A DNA stretch of 45,692 nt from a virus. Taxonomy: Duplodnaviria > Heunggongvirae > Uroviricota > Caudoviricetes. This document shows positions 6,742 to 17,429 of this stretch, one piece after another. Below the pieces are notes generated by a model. It had not been told where the DNA came from. It searched no databases and saw nothing but the letters and a program-made list of their open reading frames with translations. The DNA lies in the IMG/VR virus record IMGVR_UViG_2651869695_000008; one strand, 5' to 3'. The position numbers and the translations under genes are program-made. The stretch's first letter is position 1, and each line of letters begins with the position of its first letter.

Positions 6742-6763
6742 GCAATACACACTGCAATACACG
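6742..6763 (+). repeat. Two direct copies of GCAATACAC(A/G) near the left end of the satellite; candidate integrase arm-type sites
   Basis: Same motif occurs three times at 17377-17429 near the other end of the element. Confidence 0.5.
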
Positions 6764-7103
6764 ATTATTTATAAGATGAGCGGCATCCGTCATAAAGCTG
6801 GTGGATGCTTTTTCTATGCATATATGCACAGTTTTAGTGGGCGTTAATGTCGATATAGGGATCCCCATATCGAGATTGGATACCTGGCTTTTTTCCGGTT
6901 AACCTTTAATCAGGCTGGTGGGCTTTACCTGTTTTGTATGAGTGGTCATCATGACCATGTCATAACAAAAACCCCATATTCGTGGTTTTTCTGTGTCGGG
7001 CTATTCTGTCGTTGCTGTGCTGATTTGGCTGGTGGGCTGAATCATCATTACGGCGATGCAGCTATGTAGACGTTCCGGCCTCCTCAAATTGAGGATTGTG
7101 GAA

Positions 7104-7255
7104 GAATCAATGGGTTAGTCTTACTTTCCCGACATCCCCCAATGGGGGTTTTCGAAACAATCAATAGCTTAGGCTTACTTCCCCGATTTCCTGCATTGCA
7201 GGTTTTCGAAATAATCAATGGGTTAGGCCATCGTGCAATTTTGCACTTTGCCAGC
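7104..7255 (+). repeat. About 2.7 tandem copies of a ~56-bp repeat, each with a short GC hairpin followed by TTTTCGAAA
   Basis: Units begin AATCAAT(G/A)G(G/C)TTAGG; hairpins CCCCCAATGGGGG, CCTGCATTGCAGG, GTGCAATTTTGCAC differ in stem sequence but stay self-complementary; a fourth hairpin CCCCCAGTGGGGG at 7308-7320. Confidence 0.5.
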
Positions 7256-7476
7256 CAGCGCAATGTCGCGTTATCAGTCCTCAGATGTGAGGGATGTAGC
7301 CAGCTTTTCCCCCAGTGGGGGATATCCAGCACCGACGGCTTAACTGTGCGTGCCAGCACAAGGTAGCCTTGAACTACTTACTGCATCCCATCTTACAGGC
7401 CGTGCCTTCCTGCTTAACTTTTTGCAATGCAACAAGTCAGCCAGCGCAATTTTGCGTTATCGGGAATATCAGCAAG

Positions 7477-7758
7477 TTACCGCCGCAATCGTTCCGGCTT
7501 CTTCCACTGGTAAGTGTTTTTCGCGCTCTCCCTCCGTTGTTGAGAACGGCGACGATATGCCAGCAACTCAAGGACTCTTGTTCGTATGTTGCGCATATCC
7601 ACGCCGTTAAGCTCAATACCGTCACGGCGCATCACCTCAGCCACTACACGCACATAATTATCTGCGGTCACGCTGTCCGGCTGCGTGGCCTGTTCGTCAT
7701 GCTGCTTGCTGATTCCACAAGCACGGCGGATTAATCGCAGTATTTCGGATTCAGTCAT
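7477..7758 (-). CDS. Hypothetical protein (93 aa), last gene of the satellite packaging module
   Basis: ORF only; basic C-terminus; no recognisable motif. Confidence 0.35.
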   Translation of the reverse strand: MTESEILRLIRRACGISKQHDEQATQPDSVTADNYVRVVAEVMRRDGIELNGVDMRNIRTRVLELLAYRRRSQQRRESAKNTYQWKKPERLRR

Positions 7759-7769
7759 AGCGTACTACG

Positions 7770-8312
7770 TTACTTATCTTTATTCGGCTGCAACTTATCC
7801 GGTACGTTTCCGGCAGTTTCCATCAGATAATCGGACAGCATCAGCGGTATGTTTTCGTCAAGTTTTGCGCATGCGTTACAGGCTCTGATAACTTCTTTTT
7901 TCAGTCCATCCAGCATAGACGGCTTCATGTCGGGAAACTTCCTTGTCATGGCAAGCGGCAGGCTGTCCATGATTGAAGAAATCTGACTCGCCAATTTTGA
8001 AAGCACGTATATACAAAACGCGGTATCAATAACGTCGCCGCGTTCGCGCTCGTTTTTAAGCTCCTGCGCCTCTGCCTGTGCTGTCAGCAATCTGATCCTG
8101 ACTCGTAGGAGTTCATCATCATCAATCTCGCCTTTGTCGTCTGTAATCTGGTTAATTGCATTGCTAACCCGATTGTCTATTACGCTGGCAACATCATAAA
8201 ACGCCTCGCGGCCTTTACGTTCAACGGGAGTCACTCCCCACTTGTCGAACGCTGTCGCACTTACACGGCAGCTTTGCGCCATGTTTTTTTTGTTCATCAG
8301 GTGCGATTTCAT
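7770..8312 (-). CDS. Nu1-like small terminase subunit of the satellite (candidate packaging-redirection protein)
   Basis: C-terminal region DTAFCIYVLSKLASQISSIMDSLPLAMTRKFP... parallels lambda Nu1 ETAFCTFVLSRIAREISSILDGIPLSVQRRFP...; N-terminal DNA-binding region divergent; lies directly downstream of a cos site. Confidence 0.75.
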   Translation of the reverse strand: MKSHLMNKKNMAQSCRVSATAFDKWGVTPVERKGREAFYDVASVIDNRVSNAINQITDDKGEIDDDELLRVRIRLLTAQAEAQELKNERERGDVIDTAFCIYVLSKLASQISSIMDSLPLAMTRKFPDMKPSMLDGLKKEVIRACNACAKLDENIPLMLSDYLMETAGNVPDKLQPNKDK

Positions 8313-8420
8313 CAATATCCCCACTTAAGTAATGTTTCAGGTTGGTGTATTGGCTTTATCTTTTCCTTTTTATTCATAGAGATAGAGCGAACAACAAAAC
8401 CACCACCAGCACCCGAAAAA

Positions 8421-8484
8421 GGCTCATAAATAGCGAAAACCCGCGAGGTCGCCGCCCCGTAGCCTACCGGATCGCCGGAAAGGA
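8421..8484 (-). other. Satellite cos site; cosN 12-nt cohesive-end sequence at 8446-8457
   Basis: CATAAATAGCGAAAACCCGCGAGGTCGCCGCCCCGTA is identical to the prophage cos at 21186-21224 and to the reverse complement of lambda cosN GGGCGGCGACCT; the flank on the terminase side differs from the prophage. Confidence 0.8.
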
Positions 8485-15125: not shown

Positions 15126-15221
15126 TCACATTGCCCACCAGCCGCAAATGTGGCATTGTTGGTGATGCTTTTGTTTTCCCTTGTTCCCACTGGCGACCCT
15201 TTTGCGGTCGCCTTTGTTTTG

Positions 15222-15800
15222 TCACTGAATGCGGTTACCAAAGTAAAACTCAGGCTGATATTCACGTATCAGCGTTTTTTCTTCTTCCTCCAGCTCACGC
15301 TTTTTGCGCTTACATGCCTGTAGCTCCCTCCCCTTCTCGCTGGCACTTATTTGATATTGCTCTTTACGGCGGGAAAAATCCTGTAATGCACCCCACGGGA
15401 TACCATAAGTCCCCGTTTTTCTGATACCTGGTATCACATTTCTGAATACCCAGTTACTGAAACGATGAGCAAATGTGCCAGGCGTCGTTGCTTTGCGGCT
15501 GCGGGCTATTAGTTTGTAGAAACCTGACTCAGAGATAATTCTCATATTCTGATTTCCTCCTGGGGTGTAAGTTAAATTTACTCCCTTTTCATCATCATCA
15601 AGCATCTGCAACGCCGTACGCGAATTGGTTAGTTCCAGCGCAGCACAAACATCTTTTGCAACAAACCACGGATCGCCGTTCAGATACACCACACGAACGT
15701 TCACACTATCAAAGCGCAGAACGACGAGATCACGAATATCGCAGAATTTTTTCACTGGACGAGCGTACCCCTTGCCCGTCACAGCAATATTTTTATTCAT
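15222..15800 (-). CDS. Bro-N domain protein (antirepressor-like)
   Basis: 192 aa; N-terminal region with FVAKDVCAALEL... typical of Bro-N domains. Confidence 0.7.
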   Translation of the reverse strand: MNKNIAVTGKGYARPVKKFCDIRDLVVLRFDSVNVRVVYLNGDPWFVAKDVCAALELTNSRTALQMLDDDEKGVNLTYTPGGNQNMRIISESGFYKLIARSRKATTPGTFAHRFSNWVFRNVIPGIRKTGTYGIPWGALQDFSRRKEQYQISASEKGRELQACKRKKRELEEEEKTLIREYQPEFYFGNRIQ

Positions 15801-15856
15801 CGCGTTTTTACCTTATAGACAAAAAACCCCTCGTGATGAGGGGCATTATTTACTGG

Positions 15857-16114
15857 TTATTGCTGTTTTGTTTTTCCAGGTTTCCATCCAGGATGCCACT
15901 CACCACGGATCCATGCCTGAACCTCTGAAAGTCGATACCCTGCAGCACGTTCACCGATCTTGATACGTCGCGGGAATTTACCTGCCTGCTCCATTTTCCA
16001 GCGTGTTGAGTTTGCCAGCGTGGTAAGTGCTATGCACTCTTTTTCACGAATGAACCGATCAATGTCCTTCATTGTGCGCAAATCGTTTTCATCAACAAGA
16101 GAATAAATTGCCAT
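15857..16114 (-). CDS. alpA: AlpA-family regulator or excisionase adjacent to integrase
   Basis: 85 aa; ALTTLANSTRWKMEQAGKFPRRIKIGERAAGYRLSEVQAWI fits the AlpA pattern. Confidence 0.7.
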   Translation of the reverse strand: MAIYSLVDENDLRTMKDIDRFIREKECIALTTLANSTRWKMEQAGKFPRRIKIGERAAGYRLSEVQAWIRGEWHPGWKPGKTKQQ

Positions 16115-16115
16115 A

Positions 16116-17357
16116 TCACACCACCTCTTTATTAAGCTCGATAACGTTGTTGTTAAATCCTGCTATCGTATTAAGGTAATTAACCCACATATTAAGCACC
16201 TCAAGTTTTTTCTTTATATGCCTGCTTTTATTGTAAACACCAGCAACCCCTTTCACTTTATGACCTAAAAGAAGTTCGACAATATAAGGATCCGCCCCCA
16301 TATCATTAAGCGTAGTGGAAAATGTGCGCCTGAAATCATGTATGCACCACAAGCCATTAGTATCATGACCAAGACGCCTGCATATTCTGTTTGCAGCCCC
16401 TGTTATTGTCGCCCTTTGCAAAGCACAACCGACAACATAACCGCGATTTTTTGTTTCTGCGTAAAGATTAACGATCCATTGTTTTATTCCGTCAGGAACA
16501 GGCCTTACTATAGCCTCCTTGTTTTTGCTGTGCTCTTTTGGGACTGTCCATACCCAGTTTTTTAAATCCCATTCGTCCCAGGTGGATAGCCTCGCCTCCT
16601 GCTGTCGGCAACCAAACACCAGGCAGATAACCATTATTCTTCGGTTATATATTGATGACAGAGTTAGCAAATTATTACCGTAAGCATAAGACCATACATC
16701 AGCGGTTTCATTGATATTAAGAACGCGATCCCTTATACCGGATGAGCGCCCGACATAACTTACGTTAATATCTCCAAAGGGATCGCACGCGATGTATTGC
16801 CTGACGCGACAAAAACGCAACGCCTGTTTGATATCAAGAAAAATTGCACCAGACATAACAGGCGCATTTTTTTTGATCCTGTCAAAGACGGTAAGCCATG
16901 TGTGTAATTTGCACTGTTCTATAGCCATATCACCGATATAGGGGAAGATATGCTTTTCAAATCGTTTTATTAAATATTCATGCTCTTTTCTGGCTGTTGT
17001 GGCGTGATTGTCGTACCAGTAAAACAGCGCATCCCTTACGGTCACTGGTTGCATAGTTTTTTCGGCAGCAAGTTTTATTTGCCTGCGGGGGTCCAGATTT
17101 TCAGCCAGCCATTCACGGCACTGATCACGCATGCGCCTGGCCGTTGCAAGAGACATGTCAGGATAGCGACCAAGTGTAAGCCATACCGGAGGGGATTCCC
17201 TGCCACCAAGACGATAGTAAAAAACAAAGCTGATCCCCCCAACCATGCTTACACGCACAGACAACCCGCGCCCATCCGCTATTGTTTTTTGTTTGTCCTG
17301 CCGTTTTCCGACAAGACTCTTTAACAGTTTGTCACTGAGTTTGTTTTCAATAGCCAT
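16116..17357 (-). CDS. int: Tyrosine site-specific integrase (P4-like)
   Basis: 413 aa; C-terminal catalytic region with HDFRRTF...LLGH...Y; next to element boundary and arm repeats. Confidence 0.9.
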   Translation of the reverse strand: MAIENKLSDKLLKSLVGKRQDKQKTIADGRGLSVRVSMVGGISFVFYYRLGGRESPPVWLTLGRYPDMSLATARRMRDQCREWLAENLDPRRQIKLAAEKTMQPVTVRDALFYWYDNHATTARKEHEYLIKRFEKHIFPYIGDMAIEQCKLHTWLTVFDRIKKNAPVMSGAIFLDIKQALRFCRVRQYIACDPFGDINVSYVGRSSGIRDRVLNINETADVWSYAYGNNLLTLSSIYNRRIMVICLVFGCRQQEARLSTWDEWDLKNWVWTVPKEHSKNKEAIVRPVPDGIKQWIVNLYAETKNRGYVVGCALQRATITGAANRICRRLGHDTNGLWCIHDFRRTFSTTLNDMGADPYIVELLLGHKVKGVAGVYNKSRHIKKKLEVLNMWVNYLNTIAGFNNNVIELNKEVV

Positions 17358-17376
17358 TAAAAGCCCTCAAGAGATT

Positions 17377-17429
17377 TGCAATACACACCCATCCCGATCG
17401 CCAATTTGCAATACACATTGCAATACACA
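17377..17429 (+). repeat. Three direct copies of TGCAATACACA upstream of int; candidate arm-type integrase sites
   Basis: Same motif as at 6742-6763 at the other end of the element. Confidence 0.55.

What the first reader, a model, noticed from the sequence alone, without database searches (positions are those of the whole stretch)
6742..17429. Shared TGCAATACAC direct repeats at both satellite ends
Two copies at 6742-6763 and three at 17377-17429 of the same 10-bp motif, all in one orientation, lie about 75 bp and 130-180 bp inside the junctions, the right-hand set sitting between int and the boundary. This is the arrangement expected for arm-type integrase binding sites in attL and attR and independently supports the element boundaries.
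Basis: seen in the sequence. Interest (0 to 1): 0.5.

Follow-up and report, generated by a model that had tools for sequence, protein, structure and literature searches.

The report
Integrase arm sites of a helper-embedded satellite
The five TGCAATACAC repeats are real and lie inside both ends of a phage satellite inserted in a prophage portal gene; they are an already published motif, and comparison with relatives indicates they are docking sites for the N-terminal domain of the satellite's integrase.

Summary
GCAATACAC occurs five times in 45.7 kb. All copies are on the + strand and all lie 74-181 bp inside the two junctions of a 10.9-kb satellite that splits a lambda-like prophage portal gene.

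The motif is not new. Its reverse complement is the "doubled motif" tgTGTATTGCantgTGTATTGCa that Tommasini, Mageeney and Williams (2023) reported for helper-embedded PICIs. It sits at the published spacing from the attP centre. Those authors left open whether integrase arm domains, AlpA or another protein binds it.

My comparison of about 90 related loci favours integrase.
- A 12-bp-spaced doubled repeat at the same distances from the core occurs across this P4-like integrase family, including phage P4.
- Its sequence falls into at least six classes.
- The class tracks the integrase N-terminal domain (AUC 0.997), not AlpA (0.84) or the rest of integrase (0.82).
- Elements with 96% identical AlpA carry different motifs in both arms.
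- One natural chimera swapped only integrase residues 1-60 together with the motif.

Binding itself is untested. The finding is correct but already known.

The parts
6741..6750 (+). Int-distal arm, repeat copy 1 (CGCAATACAC, one mismatch). This is the first half of the distal doubled motif.
   Evidence: conserved as a 12-bp-spaced pair in L003, L006, L009, L010, L017 and L071
6753..6762 (+). Int-distal arm, repeat copy 2 (TGCAATACAC).
17377..17386 (+). Third, single copy, 20 bp upstream of the int start codon and 30 bp from the proximal pair.
   Evidence: conserved at the same place in L003, L004, L006 and L008, one mismatch in L015, absent in L009
17407..17416 (+). Int-proximal arm, doubled motif, half-site nearer to int.
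17419..17428 (+). Int-proximal arm, doubled motif, half-site nearer to the core. The pair begins 132 bp from the core centre.
6660..6667 (.). Left junction: the ATCGCCTT block shared by both junctions and the intact portal gene (crossover region). TTTATG at 6666-6671 is the element-side core-type half-site.
   Evidence: alignment with phage Turner portal gene; sequence
17553..17565 (.). Right junction: the element-side core-type half-site CATAAA (17553-17558) and ATCGCCTT (17558-17565). The reconstructed attP core reads CATAAA-TCGCC-TTTATG, a perfect 6-bp inverted repeat.
16116..17357 (-). Tyrosine integrase, 413 aa. The N-terminal arm-type DNA-binding domain spans residues ~7-94 (about 17076-17339); central and catalytic domains follow.
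   Evidence: Pfam PF13356, PF22022, PF00589; PDB 3JU0/3JTZ; AF2 model pLDDT 85 with full-length matches to lambda Int, and N-domain rmsd 1.4-1.8 A to 3JTZ/3JU0/3RMP
15857..16114 (-). AlpA-family protein abutting int. It is the probable excisionase/activator and the rival candidate for binding the motif.
   Evidence: Pfam PF05930, E 5e-14; 33% identical to P4 Vis
17452..17467 (.). Palindrome TGATGA-ACGG-TCATCA between the proximal pair and the core. Its function is unknown; it could be a site for an accessory protein.
   Evidence: conserved in the window, L003, L004, L006 and L008, not in L015
5888..6670 (-). C-terminal fragment of the interrupted prophage portal gene (lambda B cognate).
   Evidence: RefSeq annotation of the 99.9% identical locus L001
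17555..18388 (-). N-terminal fragment of the interrupted portal gene, co-oriented with int.

Best explanation
The repeats are the arm-type binding sites of the satellite's own heterobivalent tyrosine integrase. The element is a helper-embedded PICI inserted in, and co-oriented with, the portal gene of a lambda-like prophage.

In the excised circle the two ends join into an attP of about 390 bp. Its order is: distal pair, about 78 bp, core (CATAAA-TCGCC-TTTATG), 132 bp, proximal pair, 20 bp of spacer, third copy, 20 bp, int ATG.

Inferred mechanism: each protomer of an Int tetramer binds one TGTATTGC half-site through the beta-sheet of its N-terminal domain (residues ~24-65). Its C-terminal domains bind a core half-site. 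Bends in the arms let the arm sites bridge to the cores, so a lambda/P4-type intasome forms. After integration two sites stay at one junction and three at the other, and excision needs both junctions plus AlpA as directionality factor. The third copy next to the int start may add directionality control or int autoregulation, as in P4 and KplE1.

Shown here: the position, conservation, geometry and covariation of the sites, and the domain architecture of Int. Inferred: actual binding, stoichiometry, the role of AlpA, and the role of the third copy.
For: 1. Int has an arm-type DNA-binding domain. Evidence: Pfam PF13356, E 3e-17; sequence matches to the solved arm-type binding domains 3JU0 and 3JTZ; AF2 N-domain rmsd 1.4-1.8 A to 3JTZ, 3JU0 and 3RMP; full-length matches to lambda Int tetramer structures.

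2. In an alignment of seven attPs with this motif, taken from different target genes and cores, the only invariant blocks are the two doubled motifs.

3. Geometry is fixed across the 10 attPs measured (motif classes A, B and F). The distal pair starts 93-104 bp before the core centre and the proximal pair starts 131-140 bp after it. The cores differ: two portal sites, capsid E, hpt and fis.

4. The same 12-bp doubled repeat lies about 35-90 bp upstream of int in nearly all of about 80 relatives. It has clade-specific sequences: GTGTATTGC, GGTGTATCA, TGTATAAAC, GGTGTAGTC, GTGGGGTAC and GGGGTACAT. Both arms carry the same class in every complete element seen.

5. Motif class is predicted by Int N-domain identity with AUC 0.997, against 0.82 for the rest of Int and 0.84 for AlpA.

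6. Discordant cases. L030 (both arms GGTGTATCA) and L095 (both arms TGTATAAAC) have 95.7% identical AlpA but only 60% identity in Int residues 1-60. L051 and L056 share 40/40 of Int residues 61-100, 294/307 of residues 101-413 and 97-98% of AlpA, yet only 26/58 of Int residues 1-60, and their motifs differ.

7. Phage P4 has the same layout, annotated in its GenBank record as 'attP arm sequence repeat': 12-bp doublets in both arms, co-oriented, plus an extra copy at the int start.

8. The motif is not enriched outside att arms.
Against: There are no binding data for this motif. For this motif class (TGTATTGC), a distinct AlpA subtype abutting int is found in every member examined, so Int and AlpA cannot be separated within the class. 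The exclusion of AlpA rests on other classes plus homology of architecture.

In the excised circle both arms, the core and the int 5' end lie within about 400 bp. One recombination tract could therefore co-transfer them by linkage alone, which weakens the domain-swap argument. The pairwise AUC values are not phylogenetically independent. All five sites point the same way, which I recall differs from lambda's arm-site arrangement.
Confidence: 0.8

Rival explanations
1. The repeats are binding sites for the satellite's AlpA protein, an excisionase/transcription factor of the Xis/Vis/TorI kind. AlpA would bend the arms or activate int.
For: The authors of the HE-PICI paper name this as a possibility. 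An AlpA subtype that abuts int occurs in every element examined with the TGTATTGC motif. Three copies lie just upstream of int.
Against: In sister classes the motif changes in both arms while AlpA stays 96-98% identical. AlpA identity predicts motif class far less well than the Int N-domain does (AUC 0.84 against 0.997). The two-plus-two half-site layout at fixed distances on both sides of the core is the layout annotated as arm repeats in P4.
Confidence: 0.1
2. The repeats are mainly a transcriptional operator for int, used for autoregulation or as a roadblock to read-through from the helper late operon, and are not needed to assemble the recombination complex.
For: The right-hand copies lie 20-71 bp upstream of the int ATG. 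In P4 and KplE1, Int bound at att sites overlapping the int promoter represses int (PMC2951348).
Against: The distal pair is 10.6 kb from int in the integrated state, yet it is as conserved as the proximal pair and sits at a fixed distance from the core. No sigma-70-like promoter is found in 17300-17650. This function could coexist with arm-site function rather than replace it.
Confidence: 0.05
3. The repeats bind an unknown host or helper-phage factor, or serve replication (iterons) or packaging.
For: The published paper left 'some unknown DNA binding protein' open.
Against: A host factor would not explain clade-specific motif classes that follow Int residues 1-60 within the same host groups. 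A lambda-type cos sequence lies elsewhere, at 8412-8489. The repeats are far from the primase gene and tied to the core by fixed spacing.
Confidence: 0.05

Closest known systems
HE-PICI 'doubled motif' tgTGTATTGCantgTGTATTGCa (Tommasini, Mageeney & Williams 2023, NAR Genom Bioinform, PMC10111431)
   Same: It is the same sequence (reverse complement of TGCAATACAC). There are two co-oriented doubled copies per attP at the published spacing (132 bp on the int side, about 80 bp on the other). The element is inserted in and co-oriented with a prophage late gene, here the portal gene.
   Different: The paper does not mention the third single copy next to int. It calls the motif unique to HE-PICIs and absent from fis PICIs. 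I find that fis, hpt and other PICIs carry the same doubled architecture with other sequences, and that a Salmonella element next to a LysR-like chromosomal gene carries the TGTATTGC version. The paper left the binding protein open.
Phage P4 attP arm sequence repeats (annotated in NC_001609; Pierson & Kahn 1987, recalled from memory)
   Same: 12-bp doublets lie in both arms, co-oriented. The proximal doublet lies between the core and int, and an extra copy sits at the int start. P4 has an Arm-DNA-bind_3 integrase and an AlpA/Vis-type partner.
   Different: The motif is TGGGGGCA. The integrase is only 22% identical. The distances to the core are somewhat shorter (about 87 and 123 bp). P4's extra copy is inverted. 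P4 integrates at a tRNA-Leu gene (from memory), not in a prophage gene.
Lambda Int arm-type sites P1, P2, P'1-P'3
   Same: The integrase is heterobivalent and there are five arm sites split 2 + 3 on the two sides of the core. The predicted Int structure matches lambda Int tetramer and Holliday-junction structures.
   Different: The N-domain family differs (PF13356). All sites here point the same way (lambda's P and P' sites are inverted, as I recall). The sites form strict 12-bp doublets. No clear IHF consensus is present in this window's arms.
KplE1 (CPS-53) IntS/TorI attL
   Same: It is a P4-family integrase whose arm-type sites overlap the region upstream of int. Int and the directionality factor both act there (PMC2951348).
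   Different: The KplE1 P' sites share a TAAA motif, and separate TorI sites are mapped. Here no separate AlpA sites have been identified.

Membership tests
Arm-type sites of a heterobivalent tyrosine integrase | The integrase carries a separate N-terminal arm-binding domain. | tested here: met
   PF13356, E 3e-17; 3JU0/3JTZ sequence matches; structural match with rmsd 1.4-1.8 A
Arm-type sites of a heterobivalent tyrosine integrase | Repeated sequence, different from the core-type sites, present in both attP arms tens to more than 100 bp from the crossover. | tested here: met
   The core is CATAAA-TCGCC-TTTATG and the arm motif is TGTATTGC. Copies lie 74-96 bp and 130-181 bp from the junction blocks.
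Arm-type sites of a heterobivalent tyrosine integrase | Site sequence co-varies with the arm-binding domain rather than with the catalytic domain or accessory proteins. | tested here: met
   AUC 0.997 (Int N) against 0.82 (Int C) and 0.84 (AlpA); L051/L056 chimera; L030/L095
Arm-type sites of a heterobivalent tyrosine integrase | Direct, sequence-specific binding by the Int N-terminal domain, and a requirement for recombination. | not testable with these tools
   This needs EMSA or footprinting and att-site mutagenesis.
HE-PICI doubled motif (PMC10111431) | Sequence tgTGTATTGCantgTGTATTGCa, two co-oriented copies per attP. | tested here: met
HE-PICI doubled motif (PMC10111431) | Positions 81 +/- 2 bp upstream and 132 +/- 2 bp downstream of the attP centre. 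| tested here: met
   The proximal pair starts 132 bp from the centre of the 8-bp identity block. The distal pair starts 100 bp and ends about 78 bp from it. The paper's exact reference points are not stated.
HE-PICI (helper-embedded PICI) | [quoted passage not shown] | tested here: met
   The portal gene is split at 6660-6667 and 17558-17565. The genes int, alpA, Bro-N, primase, capsid, decoration and Nu1-like TerS are all on the - strand, like the portal gene.
Recombination directionality factor (AlpA/Xis/Vis/TorI) binding sites | Site sequence follows the RDF protein. | tested here: not met
   In classes B, C and E, AlpA is 96-98% identical while the motifs differ. Within the TGTATTGC class the test is inconclusive.
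Replication iterons or packaging (cos/pac) repeats | Located at the origin or next to the terminase recognition site. | tested here: not met
   The repeats are tied to the att core. A lambda-type cos sequence is at 8412-8489.

The most novel reading that the evidence does not exclude
The doubled repeat and the first ~60 residues of the integrase form an exchangeable 'arm-code' cassette. At least six codes exist in this integrase family. The cassette can be swapped while the core specificity, the rest of Int and AlpA stay the same (L051 versus L056, both at fis). Different codes may keep satellites that share an attachment site, sit in tandem (L042, L054) or nest inside a helper from assembling mixed recombination complexes. 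That would extend the published picture, in which the motif is described as peculiar to helper-embedded PICIs.
Probability: 0.4. Interest if true: 0.5.

Novelty: already known. Interest (0 to 1): 0.3.

Why it matters
For the finding as given, it matters little. The motif, its positions and the arm-site hypothesis were published in 2023, and P4's equivalent repeats have been annotated for decades.

The useful points are two. The repeats independently confirm the satellite's boundaries and identify it as a helper-embedded PICI. The comparative data also go some way to settling the question the 2023 paper left open, integrase or AlpA, in favour of the integrase N-terminal domain.

If the arm code and Int residues 1-60 are a swappable module, this gives a simple rule for predicting attP arms from integrase sequence in P4-like integrases. 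It would also give a set of possibly orthogonal integrase/att pairs to test.

Tried and rejected
- **Single-protein locus search.** The search for related loci with the single integrase in genome contigs found nothing. Repeating it with an alignment of 29 homologues gave 80 loci.
- **Failed look-ups.** P0005 had no record. The JBC 2009 paper on the HPI/HAI7 arm domains is not held. A search for the 3RMP paper found nothing. I therefore could not compare the motif with the DNA in that structure.
- **Promoter and terminator scan.** No sigma-70-like promoter was found upstream of int. I dropped the idea that the repeats are mainly promoter elements.
- **cf-PICI label.** I first took the element for a classical cf-PICI. 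It lacks portal, protease and TerL genes, and it fits the HE-PICI description instead.
- **IHF sites.** Exact YAANNNNTTGATW matches lie midway along the long arm in L009 and L010 (sequence). The window's counterpart is poor, so I make no claim for it.
- **Int versus AlpA within this class.** No discordant pair exists within the TGTATTGC class.
- **ICEKp1 paper.** It contains nothing on arm sites.
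Full report
**Observation.** A search for TGCAATACAC found exact copies at 6753, 17377, 17407 and 17419, and a one-mismatch copy (CGCAATACAC) at 6741. All are on the + strand. The shared 9-mer GCAATACAC occurs five times in the 45,692-bp window, only at these places, against 0.36 expected. For the exact 10-mer, Poisson P(>=4) is 3e-6. Both tandem pairs have 12-bp start-to-start spacing.

**What the element is.** The stretch 6400-17800 is 99.9% identical to loci in 53 complete E. coli genomes. In these loci RefSeq annotates, all on one strand: integrase, an AlpA-type regulator, a Bro-N protein, primase, SSB, major capsid, head decoration protein and a Nu1-like small terminase. 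The whole set is flanked by two fragments of a phage portal gene inside a lambda-like prophage (Pfam). Alignment with an intact portal gene (phage Turner) places the junctions at the shared block ATCGCCTT, 6660-6667 and 17558-17565. Joining the ends gives an attP core CATAAA-TCGCC-TTTATG, a perfect 6-bp inverted repeat around the crossover. The repeats lie 74-96 bp inside the left junction and 130-181 bp inside the right one. The right set lies between the junction and the int start codon at 17357.

**Already published.** Tommasini, Mageeney and Williams (2023, PMC10111431) described helper-embedded PICIs (HE-PICIs). It is present twice per attP, co-oriented, 81 +/- 2 bp upstream and 132 +/- 2 bp downstream of the attP centre. 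[quoted passage not shown] In the window the proximal pair starts 132 bp from the core centre and the distal pair ends about 78 bp from it. The window element is thus an HE-PICI at a portal-gene site. None of the five other papers in the library that mention HE-PICIs or helper-embedded satellites is, by title or abstract, a study of the motif.

**Close relatives.** Integrase homologues were traced to their contigs.
- Elements with 88% (Edwardsiella), 77% (Serratia), 69% (a metagenome) and 55% (Citrobacter) identical integrases also sit in portal genes.
- A 54% relative, common in E. coli, sits in the major capsid gene.
- All keep the motif upstream of int, and the intact ones keep a second pair at the far end.
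- In an alignment of seven reconstructed attPs from different targets, the only invariant blocks are the two doubled motifs.
- The third single copy is conserved in the five closest portal-site relatives (L003, L004, L006, L008; one mismatch in L015). It is missing in the Citrobacter element.

**The wider family.** An alignment-based scan gave 80 further loci with 31-70% identical integrases. Nearly all carry a doubled direct repeat with 12-bp spacing about 35-90 bp upstream of int, and its sequence depends on the clade: GTGTATTGC, GGTGTATCA, TGTATAAAC, GGTGTAGTC, GTGGGGTAC or GGGGTACAT. Wherever a whole element could be seen, the far arm carries a pair of the same class in the same orientation. 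One search measured ten reconstructed attPs, covering the TGTATTGC, GGTGTATCA and GGGGTACAT classes. In them the distal pair starts 93-104 bp before the core centre and the proximal pair starts 131-140 bp after it. This holds although the cores differ (two portal sites, capsid E, hpt, fis). Both arms also carry the same class in an excised fis-type cf-PICI deposited as a phage and in an IMG/VR contig.

So fis and hpt PICIs do have a doubled motif, only with a different sequence. Phage P4 itself has 12-bp doublets in both arms, co-oriented, plus an extra copy at the int start. Its GenBank record annotates them as 'attP arm sequence repeat'. P4 Int is 22% identical to the window's Int.

**Which protein reads the motif.** The integrase has an Arm-DNA-bind_3 domain. 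It matches the solved arm-type binding domains of the HAI7 and HPI integrases. In an AlphaFold model (pLDDT 85) it shows a four-stranded sheet at residues 24-65 followed by a helix. The N-domain superimposes on 3JTZ, 3JU0 and 3RMP at 1.4-1.8 A, and the whole protein matches lambda Int.

Across 64 loci assigned to six motif classes, sharing a class is predicted almost perfectly by identity in the Int N-domain. The AUC is 0.997, against 0.82 for the rest of Int and 0.84 for AlpA. These pairwise values are not phylogenetically independent, so the discordant cases matter more.
- L030 (both arms GGTGTATCA) and L095 (both arms TGTATAAAC) have 95.7% identical AlpA but 60% identity in Int residues 1-60.
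- The Proteus elements L051 and L056 are both at fis. They are identical in Int residues 61-100 (40/40), 96% identical in residues 101-413 (294/307) and 97-98% identical in AlpA. They share only 26/58 of Int residues 1-60, and they carry GTGGGGTAC versus TGTATAAAC.
- A contig with a 97% identical relative of the L051 integrase has GTGGGGTAC pairs in both arms.

This pattern is what arm-type sites read by the N-terminal sheet would give.

**Limits.**
- Within the TGTATTGC class, every element examined also has a special AlpA subtype abutting int. Int and AlpA therefore cannot be separated inside this class.
- In the excised circle the arms, core and int 5' end are contiguous, so linkage alone could co-transfer them.
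- No binding experiment exists.

**Other readings.** No sigma-70-like promoter was detected upstream of int, and the distal pair is far from int when integrated. A purely regulatory role is therefore unlikely, though autoregulation as in P4 and KplE1 could be an added function of the third copy. A packaging role is unlikely because a lambda-type cos sequence lies at 8412-8489. The motif is at chance density outside att arms in 1.56 Mb of related DNA.

**Verdict.** The boundaries are also supported. The feature itself is already known, so interest is low to moderate. The added value is the family-wide view and the evidence favouring the integrase N-domain over AlpA.

Noticed in passing
window 8412-8489, - strand (GGGCGGCGACCT at 8446-8457): The satellite carries a lambda-type cos sequence, ACGGGGCGGCGACCTCGCGGGTTTTCGCTATTTATGA, just upstream of its Nu1-like small terminase gene. 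It is 91-95% identical to lambdoid phages. That GGGCGGCGACCT is lambda's cohesive end is from my own knowledge. This suggests packaging by the helper's large terminase, directed by the satellite's own TerS.
   Followed up: partly
window 17452-17467: The palindrome TGATGA-ACGG-TCATCA lies between the proximal repeat pair and the core. It is conserved in the window, L003, L004, L006 and L008 but not in L015. It may be a site for AlpA or another dimeric protein.
   Followed up: partly
L012, L021-L070, L095 (proximal arms): PICIs at fis, hpt and other chromosomal sites carry doubled 12-bp-spaced repeats of other sequences at the same attP positions. The published statement that the doubled motif is unique to HE-PICIs holds for the sequence but not for the architecture.
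   Followed up: yes
L014:9954-9975: A Salmonella PICI whose upstream flank is a LysR-like chromosomal gene near plsY, not a prophage late gene, carries TGTGTATTGCAATGTGTATAGC upstream of int. It may be an off-target insertion or a chromosomal member of this motif class.
   Followed up: partly
L042: about 290 bp upstream of int; L054: about 273 bp upstream of int: These look like tandem PICIs at fis with different arm classes. The far-arm pair of one class lies just upstream of the fis core, and the proximal pair of another class follows it.
   Followed up: partly
window 8514-8897, - strand: A second AlpA-family gene (127 aa, PF05930, E 1e-8) lies between the decoration and small terminase genes of the satellite.
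   Followed up: no
window 7105-7228: A 54-bp tandem repeat (2.3 copies, 80% matches) lies near the int-distal end of the satellite, overlapping the last ORF at 7084-7359.
   Followed up: no
window 6782-6809: A terminator-like hairpin (11 pairs, T-run on the + strand) lies 20 bp outside the distal repeat pair. The fis-type attP in L095 also has a hairpin, but there it lies between the distal pair and the core.
   Followed up: no
window 27959-28029: A perfect (AAATAG) x 11.8 microsatellite lies well outside the satellite.
   Followed up: no
L009 and L010, long attP arm about 45-60 bp from the core: Exact matches to the IHF consensus (YAANNNNTTGATW) lie midway between the core and the proximal pair (sequence). 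The corresponding window segment (about 17493-17513) matches poorly.
   Followed up: partly
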